Shown here one piece after another: positions 580-61,266 of a DNA stretch of 64,000 nt (its first letter is position 1; each line of letters begins with the position of its first letter). Source of the DNA: a virus (Duplodnaviria; Heunggongvirae; Uroviricota; Caudoviricetes). The DNA is taken from IMG/VR virus record IMGVR_UViG_3300013383_000019. One strand, written 5' to 3'. The notes under the pieces were generated by a model, which was not told where the DNA came from, did not search any database, and saw nothing but the letters and a program-made list of their open reading frames with translations. A program made the position numbers and the translations under genes.

Positions 580-849
580 ATGAAGAAGTAGAATTCCTGG
601 CATAAAGACTTATTGATCGTATTCCTTGGCATCACATTGTTTTGCATTGGGATACAGTACGGCACAGCAAACGACATAGCGCTGTTCTGGTCCATCGTAC
701 AAATGGTGGCCTCCGAAACTGTATTGGGCGCAATAGAATTTACCCTATCATGCGCCGGGTGCTCTACGGAAATTGCAAACTGCGCCACATAGGTGCTGCT
801 TGTAATAGAACTGCTCTGTACTCTATTTGCACCGCCACAAAGTCAATAA
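580..849 (+). CDS. Small two-TM membrane protein (cassette copy) with in-frame TAG at codon 4 and one further in-frame TAG. Either an amber-gated gene or a pseudogene.
   Basis: Reads MKK*NSWHKDLLIVFLGITLFCIGIQYG...CAT*VLLVIELL..; RBS gagagg; TAA stop; paralogs at 995 and 1412 share the ATG-AAG-TAG start. Confidence 0.4.
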
Positions 850-930
850 GCCAGAGAGGCAGCTTCCTGGAGGTTGCCTCCTTTCGTTTCCAACGTTACC
901 CACCCCTAACCCTACACAAAGAAGAAAGCA

Positions 931-941
931 TGTGATATACT
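931..941 (+). promoter_or_regulatory. Extended -10 promoter (tgtgaTATACT) for cassette ORF 995..1240.
   Basis: TG-n-TATACT motif; the same motif recurs upstream of the minus-strand cassette at 42384. Confidence 0.45.
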
Positions 942-994
942 GAATACGCTACTTGTAGCACGCCTCGCCAAATATAAACACGGAGGTGTTCGCT

Positions 995-1240
995 ATGAAG
1001 TAGAACATTGAAAAGATTATCGCTTGGGTTTGTCTTGTCGTCTCATGTATCGGTCTGCTGGTCCCCGCCATATCCTTTGTCGGGTTACTCCTGTCTGCGA
1101 TACTCATGATTACGTCAGACGCCACATAGCCAGCTATAGACCTCCTGCTGGCACTCATTGGCTGTCTCATTCCGGCTGTGAGTATATTTGCCCTTATGCT
1201 CACACTATAGGAATGGGCAGTCGCTGTGTCCGATGAGTAA
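995..1240 (+). CDS. Small two-TM membrane protein (cassette copy) with three in-frame TAG codons. Either an amber-gated gene or a pseudogene.
   Basis: Reads MK*NIEKIIAWVCLVVSCIGLLVPAISFVGLLLSAILMITSDAT*PAIDLLLALIGCLIPAVSIFALMLTL*EWAVAVSDE; RBS cggagg; TAA stop. Confidence 0.4.
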
Positions 1241-1341
1241 GCTGTAGTCTTTTCTGAGGCGTGGCACATCCAGTGTCATGCCTTCTTTGTGTCAACCAAT
1301 TATTGATCCCTCCCCTAACCCTACACAAAGCAACGAACGCA

Positions 1342-1350
1342 TGATATAAT
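1342..1350 (+). promoter_or_regulatory. Extended -10 promoter (aTGaTATAAT) for cassette copy 1412.
   Basis: TGnTATAAT motif 60 nt upstream of the RBS aggagg. Confidence 0.45.
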
Positions 1351-1411
1351 GGACTTGAAGGTTCCCACCTCGTAGCAAACCTCGGCAATATATCTCAGGA
1401 GGTAATTGCCT

Positions 1412-1640
1412 ATGTAGTATCTGTAGAATCTTCATAAAGAAAAGATCATTGCCTGTATTTGCCTTGTCCTGTCATGCGTCGGACTGTTTGTCTCCGCCAT
1501 ATCCATTGTCGGAGCGCTTCTGGCCTTAGCTATAATGCTCAGGCATATCTGCGGTTGATTTTCTGCTGGCATTCTTCGGCTGCATTATTCCTATTGTGGG
1601 GGTAATTGGACTATTCTTCACGCTCTAGGAATGGGCAATC
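1412..1640 (+). pseudogene. Third cassette copy, M*YL*NLHKEKIIACICLVLSCVGLFVSAISIVGALLALAIM.., with two early in-frame TAG codons and a frameshift indel relative to copy 995.
   Basis: Homology to 995..1240 breaks frame near 1560 (a 67-nt versus 75-nt aligned block). The conserved 'ctctaggaatgggca' block is kept. Confidence 0.35.
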
Positions 1641-6775: not shown

Positions 6776-6815
6776 AAAGCGTTTGCTCCGGCCTTTTCAA
6801 ACGCTTTATTTTTGC
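6776..6815 (+). terminator. Rho-independent terminator.
   Basis: Stem aaagcgtttg...caaacgcttt followed by atttttg. Confidence 0.6.
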
Positions 6816-7433: not shown

Positions 7434-7664
7434 ATGGCGATCGATATGAAGCGGAAAAAGCAATATGATAATGAATGGCAGCGGCAAAATTGTATTCGAA
7501 TAAATTTTACAATTCGAAATAATACCGATACGGCAAAAGGTGTTATGATGTTGAAAGAACAGAAAATACCTGTTACGCCATACATTGAAAAAGCCCTTCG
7601 TAAACAACTCATCGCCGACGGCTATTTACGGCAATCCATCCAATCCAACGAAACAGAAGAATAA
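7434..7664 (+). CDS. Small ribbon-helix-helix-like DNA-binding protein, 76 aa.
   Basis: MAIDMKRKKQYDNEWQRQNCIRINFTIRNN.. resembles CopG/RHH plasmid and phage regulators. The track ORF 7233..7664 has an N-terminal extension that is a translation of Ala/Pro-coding repeat DNA and is probably not real. Confidence 0.45.
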   Translation: MAIDMKRKKQYDNEWQRQNCIRINFTIRNNTDTAKGVMMLKEQKIPVTPYIEKALRKQLIADGYLRQSIQSNETEE

Positions 7665-7678
7665 CCTGCAAAATTGAG

Positions 7679-7716
7679 AACAGCCCTATGCGCAAGCCGC
7701 GGGGGCTGTTTTTCTA
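7679..7716 (+). terminator. Rho-independent terminator.
   Basis: Stem acagccc...gggctgt followed by ttttc. Confidence 0.5.
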
Positions 7717-7964
7717 TGCCCAAAATTAAGCAAAGGAGGTAATCCTCACCCGGATCCTCATGCCTTATGGTGTGAATTATGCAGTCGTTGGCGAATGGCG
7801 GAATATCATGACGGTGTTTATGTCTGCAAACCGCAGCGGGTTTCATGCCGGTGTGCGCGGCGTTTGAGCCCGGCTTATGAACCGGCGCAGCTGCTTGCGG
7901 CTCAACAGCTCTACGGCTCTGCCTATATGGCAAATAAAGGAGGTGTGCAATTCGAAAATCGTAG

Positions 7965-8112
7965 ATAACGATGCGGGAAATTTGTAAATTCCTGCATCGC
8001 CCATCGCCACATCGCGGAAATTTACAAATTTGTCGGATCGTCTGATTGCGGAAATTCTGGAATAGCCTGATTGCGGAAATTTATATTTAAGACATCGCGG
8101 AAATTTCAAAGG
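7965..8112 (+). promoter_or_regulatory. Array of five GATTGCGGAAAT(TT) / CATCGCGGAAATTT repeats with AAATTTGTAAATT palindromic cores; a putative operator and promoter region for the early operon.
   Basis: Five copies within 150 bp, immediately upstream of the RBS aaaggagga and the ATG at 8123. Confidence 0.55.
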
Positions 8113-8122
8113 AGGAATCCCC

Positions 8123-8269
8123 ATGGACTACATCACCAGCGCAGCATACCTGTACGACGGCGGCTGGCGCAAAGAGGACAAGGAGCAGCTGATTGCGGAA
8201 TATGGCCTTTCAGAAGAGGACGCGCAGAAAATCTGCGCAGAGCTTGCAAGATTTGAAGAGGAGGAATAG
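8123..8269 (+). CDS. Small early protein, 48 aa; the first gene of the early operon.
   Basis: RBS aaaggagga; ends in TAG immediately before the next gene. Confidence 0.5.
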   Translation: MDYITSAAYLYDGGWRKEDKEQLIAEYGLSEEDAQKICAELARFEEEE

Positions 8270-8271
8270 CA

Positions 8272-8505
8272 ATGCGGGACGCTATGCGAAACATCTGGGA
8301 ATCTGCGCAAATTGGGCGCAAAGTCGGAGTGGTGGCGCTGGTGATCGTGCTGATGACCGGCGCATTTTTTGTGGGCGGAATCTGGGCGGTCACGCATATG
8401 CACGTCTACACCCGGCAGGGCGGAGAAGTCCGCGCGGAGGTATTCGGCAATGTGTTCAGCCATAACGCCGGGCAAATTCGCAGTTGGAGGGGGCGGATGG
8501 AATGA
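8272..8505 (+). CDS. Small membrane protein, 77 aa.
   Basis: Track ORF with RBS ggaggaa; hydrophobic core VGVVALVIVLMTGAFFVGGIWAV. Confidence 0.55.
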   Translation: MRDAMRNIWESAQIGRKVGVVALVIVLMTGAFFVGGIWAVTHMHVYTRQGGEVRAEVFGNVFSHNAGQIRSWRGRME

Positions 8506-8699
8506 TTGCGAAACTTGCCGCGCTGTATCTGGCGCTGAGCATGGCCGCGTCGGCGGCCTATAATACCTGCCCGCAGCATGCGTGGGACATCGCGGAACAT
8601 CGCAGCGGGCTGTTAATCGTGTCGGTGGACGAGGACGGAATCTGGCTGTTGAACCCGCTGAGCAATGCGGGAGACGATTGGTTAGGAGGAATAAAATGA
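8502..8699 (+). CDS. Hypothetical protein, 65 aa.
   Basis: ATGA overlap with the previous gene; RBS ggaggg. Confidence 0.5.
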   Translation: MIAKLAALYLALSMAASAAYNTCPQHAWDIAEHRSGLLIVSVDEDGIWLLNPLSNAGDDWLGGIK

Positions 8700-8917
8700 G
8701 CAATCTCAAAACGGCAGACCTTTTCGGGCTGGATAATCGCGAAAATTCCAATAATCGCGGAACCTACGACGTTACCATTGCCGGCGGAGAGCGCAAGCGC
8801 AGCGTGTTCGCGCCGACCCGCAAGGACGCAATTCATCAGGCATGGCGGGAGCGCTGGCTTGACCCGGAACTGGGCAACGATTGGGACGAAATCGAAATTA
8901 AACGGAGGAGGAAATAA
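8696..8917 (+). CDS. Hypothetical protein, 73 aa.
   Basis: ATGA overlap; RBS ggagga. Confidence 0.5.
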   Translation: MSNLKTADLFGLDNRENSNNRGTYDVTIAGGERKRSVFAPTRKDAIHQAWRERWLDPELGNDWDEIEIKRRRK

Positions 8918-8919
8918 CC

Positions 8920-9519
8920 ATGTCCATTTACGGAAATTCCATGTTGGCCACACTGCGCCGGGATTGCGACGGCGAATTCATCGCGCTGAGCACCTGCGCA
9001 AAATTGGACGGGCGGCACGGCCGCTTTTTAATCAACGCAGACCGGCTGGGCAAATGGCTGGCTTCAAATACCGGCGACGAATTCTACGATTCTGATTGCG
9101 GAAACTGGCTGCGCATCACTCCGGCGGGAACCCTGCAGCTGTGCTGGGTGAGCAGTGTCGGCGGCAACAAGGGTATGTGTTTAACGCAGACCCTTCGCGT
9201 AGACCGCGCGGCGCTGAAACAGCTCATCACCGGCGAACAGGAATCCTTGAAGCTGTTCGTCCCGGAGAATCGGAGCGGCAGGGCGCGGATTGAACTGGCG
9301 CAGAGCGCCCATGTTCCTCGGAACCCACACATGCGGCGCGCGTTCAGCAAAGCCTTGGCGCGGGCGTTTGGCTGGGAGGGCGCGACCATTACGCTGTACC
9401 CGGACGGCGCGCAGGATTATTACTTCGTGGAGACGTGTGAGAACGGCAAGCGTGGAATCTGCGGCGGGCTGATCTATTCGGATTATCGCGGACATAGCCA
9501 GTATAACGTGCATACCTGA
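8920..9519 (+). CDS. Hypothetical protein, 199 aa.
   Basis: Track ORF with RBS ggaggagg. Confidence 0.6.
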   Translation: MSIYGNSMLATLRRDCDGEFIALSTCAKLDGRHGRFLINADRLGKWLASNTGDEFYDSDCGNWLRITPAGTLQLCWVSSVGGNKGMCLTQTLRVDRAALKQLITGEQESLKLFVPENRSGRARIELAQSAHVPRNPHMRRAFSKALARAFGWEGATITLYPDGAQDYYFVETCENGKRGICGGLIYSDYRGHSQYNVHT

Positions 9520-9537
9520 CAAAGGGAGGATATCGCA

Positions 9538-9666
9538 ATGATGATTTTTACAACTCGCAAGGAAGCGGAAGAATTCGCCTATGGCGATGAAGTTGTCGTC
9601 AAGGTGGACGGCGGCTGGGCAGTCATGAAGGCGCAGGATTATAACGTGTGGAAGGAGCAGAAATAA
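9538..9666 (+). CDS. Small protein, 42 aa.
   Basis: RBS aaagggagga; coupled to the next gene. Confidence 0.4.
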   Translation: MMIFTTRKEAEEFAYGDEVVVKVDGGWAVMKAQDYNVWKEQK

Positions 9667-9668
9667 CC

Positions 9669-10043
9669 ATGATGTACAATACGATTCGAGAAGCTGCGAC
9701 CGCGTGGGTGAATTCATTTAACGCGGTGCCCACTACGGTAGTTGAAAAGCTGATGCAGCTTGACCTTGACGATGTGCGGGAAATCACGCCCGGCCGCAGG
9801 GACGAGGATGCAGACTATCTTCCCATGTGGGGCACGATGTGGTCGTTCGGCGACTCCGCGGACGATTACTGGCTTGAGGAGGAAGACGGGCTGGAGCTTA
9901 TGGCCGAGTGCGGCTTCCGCATCTACGAGCAGGAGGATTTCGGCTACCTCTTCGGTATCGACGGAGCCGGTTACAGCTTCATGGACAACCATTGGATTCC
10001 GCTGTATAAGGCGCGCGGACTGCAGTGGCATAGGGAGGAATGA
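9669..10043 (+). CDS. Hypothetical acidic protein, 124 aa.
   Basis: RBS ggaaggag; in-frame portion of the track ORF 9648..10043. Confidence 0.55.
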   Translation: MMYNTIREAATAWVNSFNAVPTTVVEKLMQLDLDDVREITPGRRDEDADYLPMWGTMWSFGDSADDYWLEEEDGLELMAECGFRIYEQEDFGYLFGIDGAGYSFMDNHWIPLYKARGLQWHREE

Positions 10044-10046
10044 ACC

Positions 10047-10748
10047 ATGCAGCGCTACAAAACCGAATACGATGCTCAGGCCGGTGAATTCATGCGCAAA
10101 TGGGGCGTGAAGATTCGCCGGCATTTTGTTGGGAAAATGCGGTACTTCCCGTATGACCGCGAACCGCGCAACGTGTGGGAAATTACGCTGGAGCGCGGCG
10201 ACCACGGGTATTCCTTCGCGTTCGGAGACAGCTTTGCCAACACGCAGAAATCCCCGCGCCATGAGCCGTCCGATTACAACATTCTGGCGTGCGCATCGGT
10301 GGATTCCCGCTTTGATTGCGCGGATGTGCGGGACATGATCGATAAATATGGATGTGGCGAACCCGGAGATCAGCGCGAATTTGACATACTCAACCGCATT
10401 TTGCTTACATCTAACGAACACAGTCGAAAACTGCGAGAAATGTTCGCGGATTGTCTCGACGAATTGCGGAGATTCGGTGATATGGCGGACGTGAACCCGA
10501 AACTTCGTCCGGAACTTGAACCGCTGACGGAGAAAATTCAGCGCCATGAGCTCCGGCTCCAGCAGTACGGCGAGCAGTTGCGGGAAAAGGGCGGATACAA
10601 GGATTATGAAACCCAGTTTGCGTGGGACGTGCTGCACAAAGTGATGATGACGTTCGAAATCCACAGATGGTATGACGAATATGGCTGCAACGACCAGGAT
10701 ATCACGGCGCTGGCCATTGCGGCGTGCAAAAAGGCGGGGGTGCTGTGA
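10047..10748 (+). CDS. Hypothetical protein, 233 aa.
   Basis: Track ORF with RBS gggagga. Confidence 0.6.
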   Translation: MQRYKTEYDAQAGEFMRKWGVKIRRHFVGKMRYFPYDREPRNVWEITLERGDHGYSFAFGDSFANTQKSPRHEPSDYNILACASVDSRFDCADVRDMIDKYGCGEPGDQREFDILNRILLTSNEHSRKLREMFADCLDELRRFGDMADVNPKLRPELEPLTEKIQRHELRLQQYGEQLREKGGYKDYETQFAWDVLHKVMMTFEIHRWYDEYGCNDQDITALAIAACKKAGVL

Positions 10749-10943
10749 ATGGTAAAGATCGAATTTGCAACAGGCAACGCGGCCTTCGAGGGCGATTACG
10801 AAATCGCGGAAGTGCTCACTTGTCTCGACCGGCTGAAGGGGCTCATTTATTCCGGCCGCAGGAGCGGCAAGGTTATGGACAGCAACGGGAACTGCGTCGG
10901 CGAATGGACGCTGGATTCGAAAAATGCGAAAGCAGAGGGTTAG
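10749..10943 (+). CDS. Hypothetical protein, 64 aa, ending ..KNAKAEG*(TAG).
   Basis: Track ORF. Its 29-bp 3' junction sequence is repeated at 11158. Confidence 0.5.
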   Translation: MVKIEFATGNAAFEGDYEIAEVLTCLDRLKGLIYSGRRSGKVMDSNGNCVGEWTLDSKNAKAEG

Positions 10944-10945
10944 CG

Positions 10946-11182
10946 ATGGACGATGCGCGTTATGCCTGCAAATATTGCGGCACGGAAATCCTGTGGGAAA
11001 AGTCTGACGAGAATCGCGGCGAGATTTGGTGCTGCGAAAAGTGCGGCGAACCCTTTTGCGCGCAGTGCGCGATCGACCGCATCGGTAAGCAGGCTTATCT
11101 GGATATGATGCAGATGAAGAAGGGCGACGAGTTGATTCTTTGTCCGGACTGTTATGCGAAAAATGCGAAAGCGGAGGGTTAG
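10946..11182 (+). CDS. Zinc-ribbon protein, 78 aa (CxxC ... CxxC ... CxxC), also ending KNAKAEG*(TAG).
   Basis: RBS gagggttagcgATG; four CxxC pairs. Confidence 0.55.
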   Translation: MDDARYACKYCGTEILWEKSDENRGEIWCCEKCGEPFCAQCAIDRIGKQAYLDMMQMKKGDELILCPDCYAKNAKAEG

Positions 11183-11184
11183 CG

Positions 11185-11604
11185 ATGGGACGCGGAAACT
11201 ATCTCGCCTACGGCGGCAATTACGGGGACTGTGGTTATCAGTGGTATGTGGACAACGACGTCTGGAACTGGGACGACGACCCCGAAAACACCCGCGCAAT
11301 GCTCATAGCGCGTTATAAATCCTTCGGCCCCTGCGATAAGTGGCTGGATCGTGAAAGCCATGTATTCGCGCAGAACCGGCTGTTCTATGTGGGCGTGGCC
11401 GATAACGAGAATTCCTGCGCCATTTTTCTCTCGCCCCGCGACGACGGCTTTGTCCGGAATGAGCAGCGGCGGCACTATCCCCGCTATCGGGCGGCGCTTG
11501 AGGGCATGCTGTGCGATCTGGTCGGCGTGGAAAATGTGCGCATACGAACCTCCGCATGGACTTCGCAAAGCCTTGCGGCCAACGACGAAACGAAAGGAGC
11601 CTGA
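11185..11604 (+). CDS. Hypothetical protein, 139 aa.
   Basis: Starts after the duplicated junction; in frame with the end of track ORF 11140..11604. Confidence 0.55.
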   Translation: MGRGNYLAYGGNYGDCGYQWYVDNDVWNWDDDPENTRAMLIARYKSFGPCDKWLDRESHVFAQNRLFYVGVADNENSCAIFLSPRDDGFVRNEQRRHYPRYRAALEGMLCDLVGVENVRIRTSAWTSQSLAANDETKGA

Positions 11605-11607
11605 ACC

Positions 11608-11928
11608 ATGGAAGAACTGAATCGTATCTGCGAAGAACTTGCCCGCATTGCGAAGGCGCTGGGCGCGGACGAACCCGAAATCGAACGCGAAGCCGAGCGG
11701 CGGCTGCGCGAACAGGCCAACCGCGAAGCCTTCATCCGGTCGAGCCGGGATTTCCTGCGCAAGGTCAACCCGCGGCTTGCGCATGTCGGCTATTACTATG
11801 ACGAAGCGGCCGGCGTGGAGCAGGCCGTGCTGCTGTTCCCGAATCGGCTGGTAAATGTGGACGTGGCCGGGATGGATACGCTGGCGCTCACCAAGGAACT
11901 CATGTGGGCGGCGGCGGACGTGGCGTGA
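11608..11928 (+). CDS. Hypothetical protein, 106 aa.
   Basis: Track ORF with RBS aaaggag. Confidence 0.55.
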   Translation: MEELNRICEELARIAKALGADEPEIEREAERRLREQANREAFIRSSRDFLRKVNPRLAHVGYYYDEAAGVEQAVLLFPNRLVNVDVAGMDTLALTKELMWAAADVA

Positions 11929-14404: not shown

Positions 14405-14755
14405 ATGGGCTATCTGACTTCGTATTCTATGGAGGCGCTGCATGTCGCGGCGCAGGATGTTGAAAAGATAGAAGCGGCTATCGAGGAGCTGAATATGCCG
14501 CTGGGCGACTTCTATTACGACCCGCAGGATCAGGTCTTTAACGCGGAGCCGAATGGAGAATGGCGCTGGTACGGCCATGAGGACGATATGGCTGAGCTCA
14601 GCGAGCGTTTCCCCGGCGCGCTCTTCAAGCTGCACGGCGAGGGAGAGAACCGCGACGATGTGTGGGATAAATACTTCGCCGGCGGCGAGATGATCGAGAA
14701 GGTTTACGCGGTGATGTTTATGCCGGAGCCGAAGAAGGTGAAATGGGAGGCGTAG
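14405..14755 (+). CDS. Hypothetical acidic protein, 116 aa; ends in TAG.
   Basis: Track ORF with RBS ggaggacaaaga. Confidence 0.55.
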   Translation: MGYLTSYSMEALHVAAQDVEKIEAAIEELNMPLGDFYYDPQDQVFNAEPNGEWRWYGHEDDMAELSERFPGALFKLHGEGENRDDVWDKYFAGGEMIEKVYAVMFMPEPKKVKWEA

Positions 14756-46800: not shown

Positions 46801-48354
46801 GCTTTTATCGACGGGGCGACAGCGGATCGATACGGATATCTAAAAAACGATCTTCTTTCCGTCACCGTCGTCAACATCAACACCGCCGCCTACAAGGCCG
46901 CCAATATCCCCCTCCCCTCTGTTAACGAACTGCTCGCCATGTGCCCGCCGGATGATCCAGTCTGGGATATGTACGCCAAAGGCTACACCATGGGGCTCAA
47001 TCAGGTTGAGCGCGAGAAGGCCACTGAAAAGGTCGCCCGCTATAAGCCGCGCAATATTACCGAGCTGGCCGCGTTCGTCGCCGCCATCCGCCCGGGCTTC
47101 AAGTCGATGATCGATACATTCCTCGCCCGCCGGCATTTCGATTATGGTATCCCCTCGCTGGATAACCTGCTTCAGACGAAAGAAATTCCCGACAGCTTCC
47201 TCATGTTTCAGGAGCAGATCATGAAGGTCCTCCAGCATGGCGGTTTCACCGGGGCCGAATCCTACGCCGCCATCAAGGCCATCTCGAAGAAGCATCCCGA
47301 AAAGGTGCTCGCTCTCAAGGAAAAGTTCCGCGCCACGTTCTCTCAGCGCATCGTGGAGGAGGAGCATGTCACTGAGGCCGAAGCTCTCGCCACCACCGAT
47401 AAAATCTGGCAGATCATCAACGATTCCTGCTCCTATCTTTTTAATGCATCGCATGCCACCTGCGTCGCGCTGGATAGTCTTTACGGCGCATGGCTCAAGG
47501 CGCACTATCCTTATCAGTATTACACCACCCTGCTTCGCGCCTACGCCGCCAAGAAGGATAAAGACCGCATCGCCAAAGCCAAGGAGGAAATGCGTCGGGC
47601 GTTCGGCATCCGCGTCGTCGCTTGCAAGTTCGGGCAGGATAACCGCGATTTCTTTATCGATGAAAGCGCGCACACCATCGCCGACGCGCTCACCTCCGTC
47701 AAGCACGTCAGTAGAAAAGTCGCCGACGCGCTCTATAAAATGCGCGATACGCTGTATCTTTACTTCACCGATCTGCTTTACGATATGGATATGTCTCCGG
47801 CCTTCGACGCTACAAGCATCACCGCGCTCATCAAGATGGGATACTTCAGCGATTTCGGCGGCTCCGCCAAACTGCTCAAGCTCTTTCAGGAGTTCAAGTC
47901 CGGCGAGAACCGGTTCTATAAAGGGCTCGTTGAGAAGACACAGCAGAAACGCCTCGTCGCCCTGCGCGATCTGGAAGCAGCTTTGCCGGATGAGGATCTC
48001 CCCATGGAAGAAATCATCCCCTTCGAGTGCGATTATTTCGGTGCCCCCCTCAGCGTCTATCCCGAAAAGAAGGGCTGCTACGCCGTCATCGATGTGGATG
48101 AAAAATACAGCCCCAAGCTGAAGCTCTATAGCGTCTCCACCGGAGACACCGGTGTGATGAAAATTCGCAAGCCCGATTTTGCTAAAAATCCCGTCAAGGC
48201 TGGCGACGTCATCAAGCTCCTTGGCTGGCAGAAGAAGCCCGCTTATCAGTATCAGGACGGCAAACGTTCTATCAAACCCGGCGTGACCGAGCTTTGGATG
48301 GACGGCTACAAAAAAATTTCCGTTTCGCCCGCTCAAACTGAAAAAGCGGGGTGA
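43843..48354 (+). CDS. dnaE: DNA polymerase III alpha-subunit-like (DnaE-type, N-terminal PHP domain) replicative polymerase interrupted by an intein.
   Basis: PHP motifs HKHDHISN and ATDSHF; polymerase core; RBS aaggggtggagg; the track ORF 43438..48354 carries an unsupported 5' extension. Confidence 0.75.
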   Translation: MYVNYHKHDHISNIMLADSVATMEDYAKRAVELNQTVLSSCNHGTQGNYWECAELAEKYGLKWRYVTEAYFVKDRFEKDKSNCHLILAAKTCKGVGDLNYALSEANITGYYYRPRIDLELLMALDPKDVFVTTACVGGIWKYGAEEAERLVTLLNDHFRGSFMLEVQAHNVDKQKDVNRFVLDLYRKYNIPLIAATDSHFIYPEDSKLRDQLLESHHLKYEDEEGWDMDYPSEKHLLDRFKAQGVLSVAQINEAMENTNVFLDFEDVSFDKRRKLPAAYPGMTQEERNQKYLDLVHQAWDRYKAEVPQERWPEYEEAIRYETDAVTGTNTSDYFLIDNRIVDTAKREGGVLTQSGRGCFTDTARVPTLTGLKQISQVVPGDVVIDKDGDYQKVIETFSYDIDEPLVEIQAPANKMFGSYPTCTLDHRVLVCRLNGSYDWVEASRLKKGDLLCVPKIVQPASQTAEVVDLSKYISRASMFDGDHIFELRKDMMREAFGWEILMKKFHISRSALYNFVVGRTSAEVRRGPGVYLNKAKREILDYYGVDTQEALTQKYKDTCFRLMSRWVVKDALYYEFLGMMYGDGWVRHRNDGSYVCGIAINAENEKNIYNRKIFETMASRVGGTIYEAKAKNKKLVQLTLHASSFAKYLGCTYFISKKGNDKVVPDEILLLDNEKSKAFLSGLMRTDGCFAESDRKCFDNTSPSLMNAFNILCMKAGEKPPRLTVRDRWFDKRGYNCKTSYKWVIPVYSTPYGMSRKISENDKYWLIPVTGINLLPRQKCKVYDLHIENSHSYLLNHMVVHNSGVSFLTNMLLGFSSVDRLKMPVTMYPDRFISKERLSTGQMPDLDLNCGNVEVFEKAQAEVMGEWHSAQMVAFGTLKRLSAWKMYCRSTNVAFETANAISDSLKKYELDVKYAEDDEDREAIDPFDYVPKEYHEQLRMSNKYLGMVDSISPSPCSYLLTDQDIRREIGLYRINSKTGKKGTIYAAFIDGATADRYGYLKNDLLSVTVVNINTAAYKAANIPLPSVNELLAMCPPDDPVWDMYAKGYTMGLNQVEREKATEKVARYKPRNITELAAFVAAIRPGFKSMIDTFLARRHFDYGIPSLDNLLQTKEIPDSFLMFQEQIMKVLQHGGFTGAESYAAIKAISKKHPEKVLALKEKFRATFSQRIVEEEHVTEAEALATTDKIWQIINDSCSYLFNASHATCVALDSLYGAWLKAHYPYQYYTTLLRAYAAKKDKDRIAKAKEEMRRAFGIRVVACKFGQDNRDFFIDESAHTIADALTSVKHVSRKVADALYKMRDTLYLYFTDLLYDMDMSPAFDATSITALIKMGYFSDFGGSAKLLKLFQEFKSGENRFYKGLVEKTQQKRLVALRDLEAALPDEDLPMEEIIPFECDYFGAPLSVYPEKKGCYAVIDVDEKYSPKLKLYSVSTGDTGVMKIRKPDFAKNPVKAGDVIKLLGWQKKPAYQYQDGKRSIKPGVTELWMDGYKKISVSPAQTEKAG
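44914..46248 (+). mobile_element. Intein of 445 aa with a LAGLIDADG homing endonuclease, inside the DnaE-like gene.
   Basis: N-terminal splice block G|CFTDTARV; C-terminal VVHN|S; two LAGLIDADG motifs, LGMMYGDGWV and LSGLMRTDGCF. Confidence 0.7.
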
Positions 48355-49487: not shown

Positions 49488-49865
49488 ATGGAAGAACTGC
49501 GCTTTGTAAACGCCGGCTTGAAGCATGCCGTCTGCGCGAATCATGTCATCGCCGTTCTTAACCCGCGCACCATGACCTCGAAAGAATAGGTGAAAGCCGC
49601 CAAAGGCCGTAAGCATCTGCTTGATGCGACGGTCGGGCGCAAAATCCGCTCCGTCATTCTCTTTAACGAGGGCACCGTTATGCTCTCCTCTCTCCGGTTT
49701 GAAACGCTGCTCATGCGCCTCAACGGCGATATGCGCGGCAACCTCTATGATCGGGATAGCGAATACGCTGAAACCGATCCTGAAAACACGGACGGCGTCG
49801 AGGCGGATTCCCTCATTAATAATGAAGAAGGAAAGGAGGAATCAACCTTCGATGAAGGTAATTGA
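49488..49865 (+). CDS. RemA/DUF370-like protein with an in-frame TAG at codon 34 (49587-49589) and an acidic C-terminal extension.
   Basis: MEELRFVNAGLKHAVCANHVIAVLNPRTMTSKE*VKAAKGRKHLLDATVGRKIRSVILFNEGTVMLSSL aligns with B. subtilis RemA (..[46 protein letters not shown]..) on both sides of the TAG. Confidence 0.55.
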
Positions 49866-52969: not shown

Positions 52970-53326
52970 ATGCTTGGCGATAATGTAATCTTCGGGGTCG
53001 GTAAAGACGTCCCCGTCGTCGTGAACAGCGAAGGCGGCAAGCAAAGCCGCAGCCCTTATGCTTTCCAGCTTCTGCCCGTGCATGCAATGTTTGCCGCGGC
53101 TGAAGTCGCGAAGGCCGGTGCTGAGAAATACGGCGAAACCTTCGCCTGCCGTAACTATACAAAAATCCCGCCCGAGGAGCATATCGGGCATTGCATCCAA
53201 CATCTGTACGCTTATCTTGCCGGCGATATCAGCGATGATCATCTGGCGCACGCCATTGTCCGCGCGCTCTTCGCTTATGAGACAGATAAGCTGGCGCGTG
53301 AAAGCGAGGGGACGCCCTGTGCCTGA
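52970..53326 (+). CDS. Hypothetical protein, 118 aa.
   Basis: Track ORF. Confidence 0.45.
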   Translation: MLGDNVIFGVGKDVPVVVNSEGGKQSRSPYAFQLLPVHAMFAAAEVAKAGAEKYGETFACRNYTKIPPEEHIGHCIQHLYAYLAGDISDDHLAHAIVRALFAYETDKLARESEGTPCA

Positions 53327-53828
53327 AACCGCCGTCGATGTCTTCGCCTGCGATCTCTCGCTCCATCGCCCCGGCTTTGCGCTGCTTCATTGTGAGAATA
53401 ATACGATCACCGTGCGCGAGCTCAGCAATGTCAACAACAAGTATGCCCGCAAGAAAACGCATGGCCAGATGCTTCTGGAGATTGCGCGCGAATAGAAGCG
53501 ATATATGACCACCTACCCAAACGCCATATTAGTTCGCGAGAAAGCAATTTACCCCGGCCGCTATCAGATGAAGACCATCGGGGTTTTGCATAAGGTTGTC
53601 GGCGTGGCCGATCTTTATGCCTGGCATTTGACAGGCAGAGAGTTTGAAGAGATCGATCCTCGCATGACCAAGCGCATCGTCACCGGCGATGCTAACGCGG
53701 AGAAAGATCGTGTCGCCGAAATGCTGGATGATTACGTTGGCGCTCAGCGCTATGCCTGCGACGACGAATCTGATGCGGTAGCGGTAGGCGTCGCGTGGCT
53801 TATTCAAAATAAAATTTTTCAAATGTGA
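53319..53828 (+). CDS. RuvC-like Holliday-junction resolvase with an in-frame TAG at 53493-53495.
   Basis: GTG start. N-terminal VDVFACDLSLHRPGFALL (RuvC D-x-G/S-type motif); C-terminal DESDAVAVGVAW matches the RuvC D.ADA.A.A motif. Track ORFs 53058..53495 and 53505..53828 are in frame and are separated by TAG-AAG-CGA-TAT. Confidence 0.55.
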
Positions 53829-53882: not shown

Positions 53883-54095
53883 ATGACGCTTTATACTCTT
53901 CCCGGCTGCCCCATGTGCGACCTGCTTGCCGAGCGGCTCGCGCAGCTTTAGATCCCATGCAATATTGTTTCCGATGCGGAGCAGCTGAAGGCAAAAGGCA
54001 TTCAGGTTGTCCCCGCCCTCGAAGACAAGGACGGCAATCTCATGAACTTTGCGCAGGCTATGAAATATCTCAGCAAAGGAGTATCTGTTGAATGA
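53883..54095 (+). CDS. nrdH: NrdH/glutaredoxin-like redoxin with an in-frame TAG at codon 23 (53949-53951).
   Basis: MTLYTLPGCPMCDLLAERLAQL*IPCNIVSDAEQLKAKGIQVVPALEDKDGNLMNFAQAMKYL has the CPxC redox motif and NrdH/Grx-like spacing on both sides of the TAG; ATGA overlap with nrdD. Confidence 0.55.
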
Positions 54096-59156: not shown

Positions 59157-59218
59157 CTTCGCATATTGCCGGCCTGCGCCGTGCAATGAGTGCGGAAGCC
59201 GCCCGGAGCCCATTACAG

Positions 59219-59449
59219 CTAACACCGAATGGGCAATCCGGACTGTTTCTCGATACTAACCTAAGTACCGATTCGTATCGACTCCCGGCCTGTGGGGACT
59301 TTTACGTGTGACGTCTAGCCCTGTTTAACAAAGATAGTGTCTCCGCCCGTCCTCCGGCGTTTGTCTTCTACGAATCCGTGCTCTTTGAGTATTGAGATAA
59401 CTTCCCGAGAAGATATGTTCTTCTTCAAGAAAATCACCTCCGCACTCAT
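59219..59449 (-). CDS. hicA: HicA-family mRNA-interferase toxin (orphan) with two in-frame TAG codons; it ends in TAG followed by one codon and a TAA.
   Basis: MSAEVIFLKKNISSREVISILKEHGFVEDKRRRTGGDTIFVKQG*TSHVKVPTGRESIRIGT*VSIEKQSGLPIRC aligns with the HicA consensus ..LIKLLEK.GF..VRQKGSH.IF.HP.G...TVP.H.GKDLK.GTLRSILKQAGL; the second TAG sits at the conserved GT-L position. Confidence 0.55.
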
Positions 59450-59504
59450 TATACGGCACGGGGCGACAATATACAACCATTAAAAGCAAAGGTGATGATA
59501 CGGT

Positions 59505-60215
59505 TTGGCAAAACGAAAAACTATCGATTATTCTAACCCGCCGGAGACACTGGACGATCATCCGTTCTTCGGCCTCCAGCTTGACGGCGAACAGAGGGCG
59601 TTTCGCGACGCGATCTGGGACCCCGAAAAGCTGATCGTTCTCTGCGATGCGAAAGCCGGCTGCGGCAAAACAACCATCGCAGTTATGACGGCCGAACTGC
59701 TCGTCAAATATGGGCGTTATGAGGGCATCGTTTACGTCACTTCCCCTGTACAGGAACAGAAGATCGGGTTTCTCCCCGGCACCGTGCAGGATAAGCTCTC
59801 TGTTTATAACGAGCCGTTTTATCAGGCGGCGCTCAAGGCCGGCATCGATGTAATGCACGCTGTCAAGCAGGAGAACATGATGAACGTAAAGGAGGATACC
59901 GCGTATATCGACTGTGTGTCCCACACCTTCTTCCGCGGGCAAAACATCGAAAATAAGGTCGTTATCATCGATGAAGCGCAGAACTATTACTTCGATGAGC
60001 TCAAGAAAACCCTGACCCGCATCCATGACAGCTGCAAAACAATCGTCATCGGTCATACCGGCCAGTGCGATCTGTATCACCGGCCTGAACATTCCGGCTT
60101 TGTGGATTATCTGGCCGAGGCGAGATATGAACCTTTTGCCGCCGTCTGTAAACTGACCCATAACTATCGCGGTGTTGTGTCCAACTGGGCTGACAGCGTA
60201 GAACATAGATCCTGA
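59505..60215 (+). CDS. phoH: PhoH-like ATPase.
   Basis: Walker A DAKAGCGKTTIA; PhoH-like size and conservation; probable TTG start. Confidence 0.7.
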   Translation: MAKRKTIDYSNPPETLDDHPFFGLQLDGEQRAFRDAIWDPEKLIVLCDAKAGCGKTTIAVMTAELLVKYGRYEGIVYVTSPVQEQKIGFLPGTVQDKLSVYNEPFYQAALKAGIDVMHAVKQENMMNVKEDTAYIDCVSHTFFRGQNIENKVVIIDEAQNYYFDELKKTLTRIHDSCKTIVIGHTGQCDLYHRPEHSGFVDYLAEARYEPFAAVCKLTHNYRGVVSNWADSVEHRS

Positions 60216-60226
60216 GAGGAGAACAT

Positions 60227-60844
60227 ATGGACGGACTTGTACTTCCTATTCTTTCTGATAACGTTGGCAATTATCAGTTGCCAGATCCTGAACTGGTATC
60301 CTATTACACGCTGGAAAAAGAGCGCAAACTCTGGCTCGACGGCGAAGTCGATATCAACATGCTCGAGTATGAGCGGCTGATCCTCCGCTGGAACATTGAA
60401 GACGCGGGCAAGCCGGTCAATGAGCGCAAACCGATCTGGCTGTATCTGATGAATTACGGCGGCGACGCCGATATGATGTGGTCTTTCATTGATACAATCG
60501 AATCCTCTGTGACGCCGGTTTATACGGTTAACATGGGCGTGTGCGCTTCAGCGGCTGGTATCATCTTCCTCAGCGGTCATAAGCGTTTCATGCTTCCCCG
60601 CGCTCGCGTTGTAATCCACGAGGGCAGCGCCTCCCTTTCCGGCGACAGCACCAAGGTGTTCGACGCGGCCGACAGCTACAAAAGTTCCCTAAAAGCCATG
60701 AAGGAACATATCCTCAAGAAGACCAACATTCCTGCTAAGCTGCTGAATAAAAAGCGCAACAATGACTGGGAACTGGATTCCGTTTTTTGCCTTGAGCACG
60801 GAGTCTGCGACATCATTGTGAAAACAATGGACGAAATTATTTAA
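60227..60844 (+). CDS. ClpP-family serine peptidase.
   Basis: PIWLYLMNYGGDADMMWSFIDTIE..VNMGVCASAAGIIFLSG..RVVIHEGS is a ClpP-like fold with Ser and His. Confidence 0.65.
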   Translation: MDGLVLPILSDNVGNYQLPDPELVSYYTLEKERKLWLDGEVDINMLEYERLILRWNIEDAGKPVNERKPIWLYLMNYGGDADMMWSFIDTIESSVTPVYTVNMGVCASAAGIIFLSGHKRFMLPRARVVIHEGSASLSGDSTKVFDAADSYKSSLKAMKEHILKKTNIPAKLLNKKRNNDWELDSVFCLEHGVCDIIVKTMDEII

Positions 60845-60877
60845 CCCACCCCATCATTGCGGTCTGCCGTTTACAAA

Positions 60878-60915
60878 CAAAAATGGACATGCCCAGTAGA
60901 AGGCCGTCCATTTTG
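60878..60915. terminator. Bidirectional rho-independent terminator.
   Basis: Stem aaaatggac / gtccatttt with T-runs on both strands. Confidence 0.55.
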
Positions 60916-60926
60916 AAGCGAGGTCG

Positions 60927-61139
60927 CTCACCGGTGATCATCAAAATTCACACCGGTTTGCCGCCCGATACTCTTCTAGGTTCCCGCTGGGAGTTCTTTG
61001 CTGCGGGGTACCGTAACGTGGAGCCCGTTCTCAGGGTTCTCAAGAACCGTATGGCTTCCCTTACCACGGTTTTTGAGCTTGCGCCACTGCTACTTTTCGA
61101 GTATCGAGATAACCTCTTTGCTACCTAACGGCTTATGCA
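60927..61139 (-). CDS. hicA: Second HicA-family toxin paralog with two in-frame TAG codons (codons 17 and 55).
   Basis: MHKPLGSKEVISILEK*QWRKLKNRGKGSHTVLENPENGLHVTVPRSKELPAGT*KSIGRQTGVNFDDHR; GSH, TVP and GT-[TAG] align with the HicA consensus. Confidence 0.55.
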
Positions 61140-61266
61140 TTGAAGCCACCTCCTGTGGCTATTATACACAAACACGCGGCAGACTGCAATGTTTTCTTTT
61201 GTGAACGGGGAGATGGAGCGGTACAGCAATATTAAGGGGCGATCGCGTTAACCCCGCCGGTTTCTA

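What the first reader, a model, noticed from the sequence alone, without database searches (positions are those of the whole stretch)
59219..61139. Candidate identity of the TAG-encoded residue: Leu or another aliphatic residue, inferred from conserved-position alignments
Several alignments put the TAG at a position that is normally Leu or another hydrophobic residue.
- Both HicA paralogs have a TAG exactly at the conserved GT-L position of the C-terminal HicA motif (..KPGTLRSILKQAGL..). The sites are RIGT*VSIEKQSGL and PAGT*KSIGRQTGV.
- In the two minus-strand membrane paralogs, the second TAG of 42127..42384 (IVGL*GMSF) aligns with a TTA Leu codon in 42511..42756 (IVSLLGMYS).
- In the RemA-like protein the TAG aligns with Met or Ile of B. 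subtilis RemA (KRMIQDA).
- In the RuvC-like protein it aligns with Ile or Thr.
- Every cassette ORF starts M-K-(K)-TAG-N, which reads as a plausible MK(K)LN.. membrane-protein N-terminus.

A CUA-anticodon derivative of tRNA-Leu(CAA or UAA) is a one-step suppressor. TAG to Leu is not, to my knowledge, a described recoding in phages, where TAG to Gln and TGA to Trp dominate. If real, it would therefore be novel. TAG to Gln remains possible, because the NrdH and HicA first-TAG positions are hydrophilic.
Basis: inference. Interest (0 to 1): 0.8.

Follow-up and report, generated by a model that had tools for sequence, protein, structure and literature searches.

The report
Phage amber codon read as leucine
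This roughly 117 kb gut phage has in-frame TAG "stop" codons in about ten genes and carries its own leucine-type suppressor tRNA, so TAG is most likely read as leucine, whereas the phage recoding studies I found report only TAG to glutamine.

Summary

**Read-through is real.**
- In-frame TAGs interrupt five Pfam domains: HicA (two genes), RemA-like, RuvC, and PAPS_reduct.
- They are kept in a relative with about 81% nucleotide identity. Purifying selection acts on both sides of the TAG.

**The suppressor tRNA.** The window has no tRNA. About 4.7 kb left of the window, on the same phage genome, lies a 77-nt tRNA(CUA).
- Its D-arm is 19/20 identical to phage tRNA-Leu genes.
- Of 103 viral tRNAs with that D-arm motif, 99 have Leu anticodons.
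- It has A73, U8:A14, A15/U48, G18G19 and A20a, the E. coli Leu identity set.
- It lacks the long variable arm. About twenty short-arm phage tRNA-Leu genes with sense anticodons also lack it.
- It has no Gln identity features.

**TAG-aligned columns.**

| Protein | Residues at the TAG column |
|---|---|
| RuvC | L 48/65 |
| HicA GT-x | L 33/45 |
| RemA | I 27, M 13, L 3 (of 47) |

A Codetta-like posterior gives Leu 0.87-0.99 and Gln at most 7e-5.

**Independent control.** An unrelated, heavily TAG-recoded viral contig has a long-arm Leu-type tRNA(CUA). At 12 of its 15 TAG sites, at least one ortholog lineage in relatives with almost no in-frame TAG has Leu.

**Limits.**
- Recoding here is partial, because TAG still ends some genes.
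- Charging with Leu is inferred, not shown.
- I found no report of TAG→Leu in phages.

The parts
59213..59449 (-). HicA-like gene 1. In-frame TAGs start at 59317, 59263 (the GT-x site) and 59221. The last is followed by TTA TAA, so it may be the real stop.
   Evidence: Translation. Pfam HicA_toxin positions 1-58/58 span two of the TAGs. All three TAGs are kept in relative L012. The GT-x column is L33/45.
60928..61140 (-). HicA-like gene 2 (GSH motif present). In-frame TAGs start at 61092 (a variable column) and 60978 (the GT-x site).
   Evidence: The ortholog in L012 has decayed, with a 24-nt deletion and a 2-nt frameshift.
53319..53828 (+). RuvC-like resolvase with one in-frame TAG at 53493..53495.
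   Evidence: Pfam RuvC positions 7-146/148 span the TAG. The homolog column is L48 I5 M5 F5 V1 Q1. Against L012, pN/pS is 0.03 upstream and 0.07 downstream of the TAG.
53883..54095 (+). Glutaredoxin/NrdH-like gene (CPxC motif) with one in-frame TAG at 53949..53951.
   Evidence: weak Glrx-like match. The TAG is kept in L012, with pN/pS 0.20 upstream and 0.13 downstream. Relatives have E or G at this site.
49488..49865 (+). RemA-like gene with one in-frame TAG at 49587..49589.
   Evidence: Pfam RemA-like positions 1-73/73 span the TAG. The PDB alignment gives I. Related phages have I. Bacterial RemA sequences give I27 M13 L3 V2 T1 A1.
37870..38730 (+). PAPS-reductase-like gene with one in-frame TAG at 38215..38217.
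   Evidence: Pfam PAPS_reduct positions 3-173/175 span the TAG. The viral homolog column is M5 F5 S3 I3 E1 L1 P1 R1.
42127..42384 (-). Small membrane protein B, with in-frame TAGs starting at 42288 and 42210.
   Evidence: The second TAG aligns with a TTA (Leu) codon in paralog A.
42511..42756 (-). Small membrane protein A, a paralog of B. It has two in-frame TAGs, and a TTA codon at the site where B has TAG.
580..1558 (+). Three small hydrophobic ORFs (580..849, 995..1240, 1412..1558) that start MKK#N, MK#N and M#YL#N. The last two lie in tandem units of about 410-430 bp.
   Evidence: No Pfam match.
10749..11182 (+). Two small genes (10749..10943 and 10946..11182) that end in TAG used as a real stop. 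The next gene's ATG follows 2 nt later, in another frame.
   Evidence: Read-through would add 54 and 145 residues of non-coding frame.

Best explanation
The window is 64 kb of a phage genome of about 117 kb. The phage appears temperate, because it encodes a large serine recombinase.

**What the phage has**
- Most genes are written in the standard code.
- About ten genes carry one to three in-frame TAG codons: two HicA-like toxins, a RuvC-like resolvase, a RemA-like protein, an NrdH-like redoxin, a PAPS-reductase-like enzyme and several small membrane proteins.
- A cluster of six tRNA genes lies just outside the window. One is a 77-nt tRNA with anticodon CUA.
- This tRNA has the body of a tRNA-Leu. 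It has the Leu-type D-arm and D-loop, A73 and the A15/U48 pair, but only a 5-nt variable loop.

**Proposed mechanism**
- The tRNA is a one-step CAA→CUA derivative of a class of short-arm tRNA-Leu genes found in gut phages.
- Bacterial LeuRS reads neither the anticodon nor, in E. coli, the long arm. The host enzyme should therefore charge this tRNA with leucine.
- The charged tRNA competes with release factor 1 at UAG and inserts Leu.
- Full-length products of the TAG-bearing genes are then made only when the phage tRNA is expressed. This acts as a gate on a small set of genes.
- TAG still ends some other genes.

**Shown**
- In-frame TAGs lie inside conserved domains and are under purifying selection.
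- The tRNA(CUA) is on the same genome.
- It resembles tRNA-Leu and carries the Leu identity elements.
- Leu or aliphatic residues dominate the conserved TAG-aligned columns.

**Inferred**
- The tRNA is actually charged with Leu.
- Suppression efficiency.
- The regulatory purpose.
For: **The tRNA**
- It is found in six near-identical contigs. One contig also carries the other end of the window, so the tRNA is on the same genome.
- It scores 39.9 bits against Rfam tRNA, above the gathering score of 29.
- In a blastn search, every hit on an annotated tRNA was a tRNA-Leu.
- Positions 8-26, TGGTGCAATTGGCAGACACA, are 19/20 identical to tRNA-Leu genes of Stenotrophomonas, Enterococcus and gut phages.
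- Of 103 viral tRNAs with that D-arm motif, 99 carry Leu anticodons. About 20 of them are 75-79 nt, with no long arm.
- A review (PMC9976931) gives the E. coli Leu identity set as A73, A15-U48, G18G19, A20a and D/T tertiary pairs. It says the anticodon and long arm are not needed. All of these are present in the sequence.

**Protein columns**
- RuvC: L 48/65.
- HicA GT-x: L 33/45.
- RemA: I27 M13 L3.
- PAPS-reductase-like: mostly M, F or I.
- Membrane paralog: TTA.
- Codetta-like posterior: Leu 0.87-0.99, Ile 0.005-0.12, Gln at most 7e-5.

**Read-through**
- Pfam domains span the TAGs.
- The TAGs are kept in relative L012, with pN/pS of 0.03-0.2 on both sides.

**Independent control**
- Contig L018 has an 83-nt long-arm Leu-type tRNA(CUA) and many in-frame TAGs.
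- Relatives of L018 have almost no in-frame TAG. At 12 of its 15 TAG sites at least one of the two relative lineages has Leu. At 8 of the 15 both have Leu. At 14 of the 15 the residues are Leu or other hydrophobic residues (I, V, M, A).
- PDB alignments put its TAGs at the DnaB 'AKEL' Leu and the DnaE 'SLLDG' Leu.
Against: - Aminoacylation was not tested.
- E. coli LeuRS does not charge the natural type I tRNA-Leu(CAA) of Streptomyces (PMC6614811). Charging of a short-arm tRNA therefore depends on a host LeuRS that is unknown here.
- The tRNA has a C31·C39 mismatch at the base of the anticodon stem and a C13·A22 mismatch.
- Only about eight columns are available.
- Three or four sites are polar or variable, where Leu is uncommon. 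These are NrdH (E or G), the first HicA2 site (mostly A, D, E or N) and the first HicA1 site (mostly K).
- The closest PAPS-reductase relatives have Ser at the TAG column.
- The RemA column favours Ile or Met over Leu.
- With log-odds against background instead of raw emissions, columns alone do not separate L, I and M.
- The HicA2 ortholog has decayed in a relative, so some TAG-bearing genes may be dying rather than gated.
- TAG still ends several genes.
Confidence: 0.8

Rival explanations
1. TAG is read as glutamine, the usual phage code 15, by this or another suppressor.
For: - It is the only TAG recoding reported for phages whose code differs from the host's.
- The anticodon loop UUCUAAU equals the E. 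coli tRNA-Gln(CUG) loop with G36→A (from my own knowledge, compared).
- Some TAG sites are polar: NrdH has E or G, and the first HicA2 site is variable.
Against: - The tRNA has G1-C72 and A73, not U1-A72 and G73. Its D-arm is Leu-type.
- Gln appears once in 65, once in 45 and never in 47 sequences at the three conserved columns.
- lnL(Leu) minus lnL(Gln) is 9.5 to 16.5.
Confidence: 0.03
2. TAG is read as another hydrophobic residue (Ile, Met or Val), or ambiguously as a mixture. This could happen if the short-arm tRNA is charged by a synthetase other than LeuRS, or by several.
For: - The RemA column is I or M. The PAPS-reductase column is M, F or I.
- With log-odds scoring, L, I and M are nearly tied.
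- E. coli LeuRS rejects a natural type I tRNA-Leu.
- A survey predicted an Ile isotype for 10% of phage suppressor tRNAs.
Against: - IleRS and MetRS depend strongly on the anticodon, which here is CUA (established knowledge, not tested here).
- The D-arm is specific to Leu tRNAs in 99 of 103 cases.
- The RuvC and HicA columns are 73-74% Leu.
- The L018 control shows mainly Leu.
Confidence: 0.09
3. TAG is not decoded. The interrupted genes are pseudogenes, or are expressed as separate fragments, and the tRNA(CUA) is unrelated or inactive.
For: - HicA2 is deleted and frameshifted in relative L012.
- A statistical scan of coding potential across TAGs is no stronger than for TAA or TGA.
- TAG ends other genes.
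- An ATG lies 4 codons after the RuvC TAG, and gene callers call the downstream part as a separate ORF.
Against: - Five single-domain Pfam matches run across the TAGs.
- Both halves of RuvC and NrdH are under strong purifying selection in one frame, with synonymous sites near saturation, and the TAG is kept.
- A tRNA(CUA) with an encoded CCA end is conserved in all six variants.
- TAG columns are non-random, being Leu or aliphatic.
Confidence: 0.04
4. TAG encodes pyrrolysine. ARAGORN labels the tRNA 'Pyl'.
For: Only the ARAGORN label, which is given to any CUA anticodon.
Against: The tRNA has a normal D-loop with G18G19, a TTCGAA T-loop, a 5-nt variable loop and a 5-bp anticodon stem, unlike tRNA-Pyl (compared with established knowledge). 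No pyl gene was seen in the roughly 84 kb inspected, although Pfam was run on only about 20 of its proteins and the precomputed annotations of the two flanks were read.
Confidence: 0.005

Closest known systems
Stop-codon recoding in gut phages through phage-encoded suppressor tRNAs (code 15, TAG→Gln; Borges et al. preprint 10.1101/2021.08.26.457843; Peters et al. PMC9523058)
   Same: - The phage encodes a tRNA(CUA).
- In-frame TAGs occur in phage genes while the host presumably uses the standard code.
- The integrase or recombinase gene has no internal TAG.
- TAG is depleted as a stop.
- A gating role in the lytic or lysogenic programme is plausible.
   Different: - The inferred amino acid is Leu, not Gln, and the tRNA body is Leu-type.
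- Recoding is sparse, with about ten genes affected. The structural, terminase and lysis genes inspected have no in-frame TAG.
- TAG still ends several genes.
- GC content is about 52%, not low.
Classical leucine-inserting amber suppressors, such as E. coli supP, a tRNA-Leu(CAA)→CUA mutant (from my own knowledge)
   Same: - A one-step anticodon change of a tRNA-Leu.
- It works because LeuRS ignores the anticodon (PMC9976931).
   Different: - This one is a natural, conserved, phage-borne gene.
- It is paired with a set of genes that need it.
- It has a short (type I) variable loop.
Type I (short variable loop) tRNA-Leu: Streptomyces coelicolor tRNA-Leu(CAA) (PMC6614811) and human mitochondrial tRNA-Leu(UUR)
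   Same: A Leu tRNA without the long arm. These tRNAs are leucylated by bacterial-type LeuRS enzymes.
   Different: - This tRNA is phage-encoded and has a nonsense anticodon.
- Which host LeuRS accepts it is unknown. E. coli LeuRS rejects the Streptomyces type I tRNA.
TAG→Leu in organelle codes (NCBI tables 16 and 22, chlorophycean and Scenedesmus mitochondria; from my own knowledge)
   Same: The same codon is assigned to the same amino acid.
   Different: Those are whole-genome reassignments in mitochondria. This one is partial and tRNA-dependent, in a bacteriophage.

Membership tests
Bacterial tRNA-Leu (identity set for LeuRS) | Discriminator base A73 | tested here: met
   The sequence ends ..ACCGCTC-A-CCA. 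The identity rule comes from PMC9976931.
Bacterial tRNA-Leu (identity set for LeuRS) | Leu-type D-arm and D-loop: U8:A14, A15, G18G19 in the AAUUGG register, A20a, and a 3-bp D-stem with a non-Watson-Crick 13·22 pair | tested here: met
   TG GTGC AATTGGCAG ACAC. It is 19/20 identical to annotated phage tRNA-Leu genes. Of 103 viral tRNAs with this motif, 99 have Leu anticodons.
Bacterial tRNA-Leu (identity set for LeuRS) | A15-U48 Levitt pair and D/T-loop tertiary pairs (G18:U55, G19:C56, U54:A58) | tested here: met
   The variable loop GAGTT ends in U48 and the T-loop is TTCGAAC. The bases are present. The fold itself was not tested.
Bacterial tRNA-Leu (identity set for LeuRS) | Long variable arm (class II architecture) | tested here: not met
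   The variable loop is 5 nt and the whole tRNA is 77 nt. The long arm is not required by E. coli LeuRS. About 20 phage tRNA-Leu genes with sense anticodons also lack it. E. coli LeuRS does reject a natural type I tRNA-Leu.
Bacterial tRNA-Leu (identity set for LeuRS) | Charged with leucine by LeuRS | not testable with these tools
   This needs an aminoacylation assay or mass spectrometry.
tRNA-Gln-derived amber suppressor (code 15 phages) | Gln identity: weak U1-A72 pair, G73, G2-C71 and G3-C70 | tested here: not met
   The tRNA has G1-C72, G2·U71, G3-C70 and A73. The Gln identity rules are from my own knowledge.
tRNA-Gln-derived amber suppressor (code 15 phages) | TAG aligns with Gln in conserved proteins | tested here: not met
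   Gln is seen at 1/65, 1/45 and 0/47 of the RuvC, HicA and RemA columns. The posterior for Gln is at most 7e-5.
Fully stop-codon-recoded phage (alternative genetic code) | The codon no longer serves as a stop, and in-frame use is widespread, especially in late genes | tested here: not met
   Of 95 called ORFs, 7 end at TAG. Two of these are the in-frame read-through sites in the PAPS-reductase and RuvC genes, which leaves 5 apparent TAG stops. At least two are real stops with out-of-frame continuations. The terminase, structural and lysis genes in the flanks have no in-frame TAG.
Pyrrolysine decoding | tRNA-Pyl architecture (short D-loop without GG, 3-nt variable loop, 6-bp anticodon stem) and pyl genes | tested here: not met
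   The tRNA is a canonical cloverleaf with G18G19 and a TTCGAA T-loop. No pyl gene was seen among the Pfam results or the precomputed annotations, which cover only part of the roughly 84 kb inspected.
HicA toxin (Pfam PF07927) | Full-length match to the family profile above the gathering score | tested here: met
   HicA2 scores 52.6 bits and HicA1 33.2 bits against a cut-off of 27, both over profile positions 1-58/58. No HicB partner was looked for.

The most novel reading that the evidence does not exclude
TAG→Leu is a real phage genetic-code variant that the recoding studies I searched do not report.
- It is carried out by Leu-type suppressor tRNAs, which work because LeuRS ignores the anticodon.
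- It occurs in at least two unrelated lineages.
  - In this ~117 kb phage, a short-arm (type I) tRNA-Leu(CUA) gates about ten genes, including two HicA toxins and a RuvC resolvase.
  - In the lineage of contig L018, and in metagenome contigs L250-L253, a long-arm Leu-type tRNA(CUA) is present. L018 has many in-frame TAGs in its replication genes.
- If so, pipelines that assume TAG = Gln (code 15) mistranslate these phages.
Probability: 0.7. Interest if true: 0.85.

Novelty: new variant of a known kind. Interest (0 to 1): 0.8.

Why it matters
- **Current assumption.** Phage stop-codon recoding is treated as TAG→Gln or TGA→Trp, and annotation tools hard-code these. A Leu-inserting amber code would add a third amino acid to the phage repertoire.
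- **Mechanism.** It would show that a synthetase that ignores the anticodon (LeuRS) offers an easy route to recoding.
- **Annotation.** It would change how such genomes should be translated.
- **tRNA biology.** The short-arm tRNA-Leu genes in phages are of interest in themselves, and could serve as parts for genetic-code engineering.
- **Intermediate state.** Recoding here is partial. TAG acts as both stop and sense, and only a small set of genes depends on the tRNA. This looks like an early or regulatory stage of codon reassignment, and it could be tested directly.

Tried and rejected
- **Coding density.** ORF coverage under TAG, TGA or TAA read-through did not discriminate, because at about 52% GC spurious ORFs are common.
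- **Coding-potential scan.** Only 4 TAGs had both flanks coding over 40 codons, no more than for TAA or TGA. The window was too long for the short genes.
- **Megablast of 24 kb against GenBank phages.** No match.
- **The search for homologous proteins with the 70-aa HicA2.** One hit only, because the word index is poor for short queries. That hit did lead to the divergent relative L012.
- **The search for related loci for the RuvC fragment in IMG/VR.** No relatives.
- **PDB searches.** They were uninformative at the TAG site for the PAPS-reductase and NrdH-like proteins, and marginal for RuvC (E = 1.3, TAG opposite Leu).
- **Log-odds scoring of columns.** Scoring against background does not separate L, I and M. 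I therefore also report raw-emission (Codetta-style) likelihoods and rely on the tRNA to separate them.
- **Covariation in the suppressor tRNA.** It could not be assessed, because the six copies are identical.
- **Conservation of TAG compared with Leu codons.** This is suggestive only. All alignable TAGs are kept, whereas 49% of Leu codons are identical, but there are few independent sites.
- **Pyrrolysine and Gln readings.** Both were considered and rejected on tRNA features.
- **Ribozyme check.** No ribozyme family appeared among the Rfam matches around the tRNA cluster at E ≤ 0.1. I did not check whether theta ribozymes are in this Rfam release.
Full report
**What the window is**

The 64 kb window is about 52% GC and encodes phage replication and nucleotide-metabolism genes. 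These include DnaE with an intein, a primase-helicase, NrdD, SHMT, PhoH and ClpP. Exact-protein look-ups place it on metagenome contigs of 110-119 kb. One of them, ERZ27300206 k119_58561, is 100% identical over the overlap. The flanks hold a large serine recombinase, lysis genes, structural genes and a terminase. It is therefore a phage of about 117 kb, probably temperate. It has no close match among GenBank phages, and its RuvC-like protein found no relative in IMG/VR.

**Checking the observation**

Both HicA-like genes lie on the minus strand.
- HicA1 (59213..59449) reads ..KQG#TSH..RIGT#VSIEKQSGLPIRC#L*.
- HicA2 (60928..61140) reads ..ILEK#QWR..PAGT#KSIGRQTGV...
- Each matches Pfam HicA_toxin over the whole profile, across the TAGs.

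The other cited cases are also present.
- Membrane paralogs: CTT TAG GGG aligns with CTT TTA GGA.
- RemA-like, RuvC-like, NrdH-like and PAPS-reductase-like genes each have one in-frame TAG.
- Three small hydrophobic ORFs start MKK#N, MK#N and M#YL#N. The last two lie in tandem cassettes.

Single Pfam domains run across the TAG in four families.

| Family | Profile positions matched |
|---|---|
| RemA-like | 1-73 of 73 |
| RuvC | 7-146 of 148 |
| PAPS_reduct | 3-173 of 175 |
| HicA (both genes) | 1-58 of 58 |

**Is TAG translated?**

A relative with about 81% nucleotide identity (L012, a 123 kb contig) keeps the TAGs in RuvC, NrdH and HicA1 (all three), and the second TAG of HicA2.
- Between the two genomes, the RuvC gene has pS of about 0.67. 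Its pN/pS is 0.03 upstream and 0.07 downstream of the TAG.
- For NrdH the values are 0.20 and 0.13.
- Both halves are therefore maintained as coding sequence in one frame.
- Only 49% of Leu codons are identical between the genomes, yet every alignable in-frame TAG is kept. This is suggestive only, because there are few sites.

Two things argue against a clean story.
- The HicA2 ortholog in L012 has a 24-nt deletion and a 2-nt frameshift, so that gene is decaying there.
- TAG is also a real stop. Of 95 called ORFs, 54 end in TGA, 34 in TAA and 7 in TAG, and two of the 7 are the in-frame read-through sites in the PAPS-reductase and RuvC genes. For 10749..10943 and 10946..11182 the downstream frame is non-coding, and read-through would add 54 and 145 residues. 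The serine recombinase also ends in TAG.
- The terminase, structural and lysis genes in the flanks have no in-frame TAG.

So this is sparse, tRNA-dependent read-through, not a full reassignment.

**The suppressor tRNA**

The window holds no tRNA. About 4.7 kb to the left of window position 1, on the minus strand, six contig variants carry a tRNA cluster: Ser(GCU), Met, Gly(UCC), Thr(UGU), Ala(UGC) and a 77-nt tRNA with anticodon CUA. Contig SRR29834450_5863 carries both this cluster and the right end of the window, so the tRNA is on the same genome. The tRNA is identical in all six variants. It scores 39.9 bits against Rfam tRNA, above the gathering score of 29.

Its sequence is GGGCGGT TG GTGC AATTGGCAG ACAC A GCGAC TTCTAAT CTCGC GAGTT GAGGA TTCGAAC TCCTC ACCGCTC A CCA.

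Features read from the sequence:
- G1-C72, G2·U71, G3-C70 and A73.
- A 5-nt variable loop that ends in U48.
- An encoded CCA end.
- C13·A22 and C31·C39 mismatches.

It is not Gln-like, because it lacks U1-A72 and G73. It is not Pyl-like either, because it has a normal D-loop and T-loop.

Evidence that its body is Leu-type:
- In a blastn search against GenBank phages, every hit on an annotated tRNA was a tRNA-Leu.
- Positions 8-26 differ at one base (position 13) from tRNA-Leu genes of Stenotrophomonas phage IME-SM1, Enterococcus phage H1 and a gut phage.
- I scanned IMG/VR for the motif TGGTGNAATTGGCAGACAC. Of 103 tRNAs that carry it, 99 have Leu anticodons (UAA 32, UAG 31, CAA 30, CAG 4, AAG 1, GAG 1). 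One has CUA, and three are long, oddly parsed genes.
- About twenty of these are only 75-79 nt, with no long arm. Most have anticodon CAA. One (L084) has exactly the same D-arm, including C13.

The suppressor is therefore a one-step CAA→CUA derivative of a short-arm class of phage tRNA-Leu.

The literature bears on charging as follows.
- A review of tRNA identity states that E. coli Leu identity rests on A73, A15-U48, G18G19, A20a and D/T tertiary pairs. It also states that neither the anticodon nor the long arm is needed (PMC9976931). All of these elements are present here.
- Streptomyces has a natural type I tRNA-Leu(CAA) that its LeuRS charges.
- However, E. coli LeuRS does not charge that Streptomyces tRNA (PMC6614811). 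Acceptance therefore depends on the host enzyme, which is unknown.

**Residues at TAG-aligned columns**

| Site | Column composition | Source |
|---|---|---|
| RuvC-like | L48 I5 M5 F5 V1 Q1 (65 full-length homologs) | |
| HicA GT-x | L33 V4 A2 I2 F1 K1 Q1 Y1 (45 diverse homologs) | |
| HicA GT-x, solved structures | V, L, F, E | |
| RemA | I27 M13 L3 V2 T1 A1 (47 bacterial sequences); I in two related phages | |
| PAPS-reductase-like | M5 F5 S3 I3 E1 L1 P1 R1 | |
| HicA2, first TAG | A17 E5 N5 D5 and others (variable) | |
| HicA1, first TAG | K12 T6 G4 and others (loop) | |
| NrdH-like | E or G in two relatives | |
| Membrane paralog | Leu (TTA) | |

I counted the shared HicA GT-x site once.
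- Raw-emission (Codetta-style) likelihoods with pseudocounts of 5 or 20 give posteriors of Leu 0.87-0.99, Ile 0.005-0.12 and Gln at most 7e-5.
- lnL(Leu) minus lnL(Gln) ranges from 9.5 to 16.5.
- With log-odds against background, L, I and M are nearly tied, and Gln is about 5.5 to 9 natural-log units below Leu.
- The proteins therefore point to an aliphatic residue and strongly exclude Gln. The tRNA identifies it as Leu.
- The polar sites fit single-step changes into TAG at tolerant positions: GAG (Glu), AAG (Lys) or TCG (Ser). This last point is inference.

**An independent control**

The D-arm-plus-CUA pattern also hit IMG/VR contig IMGVR_UViG_3300021400_001544 (locus L018; contig 35.5 kb; the locus is 44% GC). 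This contig has an 83-nt, long-arm Leu-type tRNA(CUA). Its replication genes are full of in-frame TAGs.

| L018 gene | In-frame TAGs |
|---|---|
| DnaB-like | 6 |
| Primase | 5 |
| Nuclease | 3 |
| DnaE | 2 |

Two lineages of relatives, at 61-67% protein identity, have almost no in-frame TAG. At the 15 TAG sites compared (the 14 in DnaB-like, primase and nuclease, plus one in a 196-aa ORF) they have:
- Leu in both lineages at 8 sites.
- Leu in one lineage at 4 sites (L/M, A/L, L/I, V/L).
- Val at 1 site and Ile at 1 site.
- Q/K at 1 site, three codons from the end of the primase gene, which is probably a true stop.

PDB alignments agree. In DnaB the TAGs fall on L, M and the 'AKEL' Leu. In DnaE they fall on the 'SLLDG' Leu and a Val.

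A natural Leu-type tRNA(CUA) therefore goes together with TAG at Leu positions in an unrelated phage. Three more metagenome contigs carry a further long-arm Leu-type tRNA(CUA), and a fourth carries the L018 type.

**Mechanism proposed**

The phage tRNA is charged by the host LeuRS, which does not read the anticodon. It then competes with release factor 1 at UAG. Genes with in-frame TAG yield full-length protein only when the tRNA is present. TAGs at codons 2-5 of the small membrane ORFs would block them almost completely otherwise.

The gated genes are two apparently orphan HicA toxins, a resolvase, a redoxin, a RemA-like regulator, a PAPS-reductase-like enzyme and the small membrane proteins. 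I did not search for a HicB partner. This resembles the gating idea proposed for code-15 phages. Here, however, the structural and lysis genes that I inspected are not gated. The regulatory purpose is inference.

**Comparison with what is known**

- Borges et al. state that they see only TAG→Gln and TGA→Trp in phages whose code differs from the host's.
- A survey of 180 phage suppressor tRNAs predicted Gln, Trp, Ile and Tyr isotypes, with no Leu (PMC10879173).
- Recent annotation papers consider Gln, Trp and Gly.
- Five full-text searches found no report of TAG→Leu in phages.
- From my own knowledge, TAG→Leu is known in some algal mitochondria, and laboratory Leu amber suppressors are classical.

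I therefore rate this a new variant of a known kind.

**Verdict**

- The Leu interpretation is supported, with confidence of about 0.8.
- The main gap is direct evidence of charging and of the inserted residue.

Noticed in passing
L018 (IMGVR_UViG_3300021400_001544): tRNA at 484-566, genes at 1319-11713: This unrelated viral contig (locus 44% GC) has an 83-nt long-arm Leu-type tRNA(CUA) and many in-frame TAGs in its DnaB-like, primase, nuclease and DnaE genes. Orthologs in relatives with almost no in-frame TAG have Leu at most of these sites.
   Followed up: yes
L250 2710-2794, L251 1981-2065 (-), L253 799-883 (-), L252 1148-1230 (-): Metagenome contigs carry further long-arm Leu-type tRNA(CUA) genes. 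L250, L251 and L253 share an 85-nt type with A73 and an encoded CCA end. L252 carries the 83-nt L018 type. Long read-through ORFs in L250 contain in-frame TAGs, but I did not check which of them are real genes.
   Followed up: partly
IMG/VR loci L045, L049, L077, L084, L089, L096, L121 and others: About twenty phage tRNA genes of 75-79 nt have Leu anticodons (CAA, TAG, TAA), a Leu-type D-arm and A73, but no long variable arm. They form a short-arm (type I) tRNA-Leu class in gut viral contigs.
   Followed up: partly
window 899-1650: Two tandem units of about 410-430 bp (71-80% identical). Each has a TATAAT-like element and a small hydrophobic ORF with TAG at codons 2-5 and further TAGs. The second copy's ORF stops early at a TGA, although homology continues beyond it.
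   Followed up: partly
window 10749-11182, 8123-8269, 14405-14755; L003 10699-12306: TAG is used as an ordinary stop in several small genes and in the serine recombinase. The codon therefore has two meanings in one genome.
   Followed up: partly
L012 10001-10198, compared with window 60928-61140: The HicA2 ortholog in the ~81%-identity relative has a 24-nt in-frame deletion that removes the first TAG. It also has a 2-nt deletion just after the second TAG, so it is probably a pseudogene there.
   Followed up: yes
L012 6263-7555, compared with L001 10699-12306: At the equivalent position right of the window, the divergent relative has a tyrosine integrase (PF00589). The window-type genomes have a large serine recombinase there. 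This looks like an integration-module swap.
   Followed up: no
L006 15041-15117 (about 4.7 kb left of window position 1, minus strand): The suppressor tRNA has a C31·C39 mismatch closing the anticodon stem, and a C13·A22 mismatch. The first is unusual and might affect decoding efficiency.
   Followed up: no
window 43438-48354: The DnaE-type polymerase carries an intein. Many related NrdD proteins also carry intein domains, although the window's NrdD does not.
   Followed up: no
window 59213-59449: HicA1 has GGD where HicA2 and most family members have the GSH motif containing the catalytic His. It may not be an active RNase.
   Followed up: no
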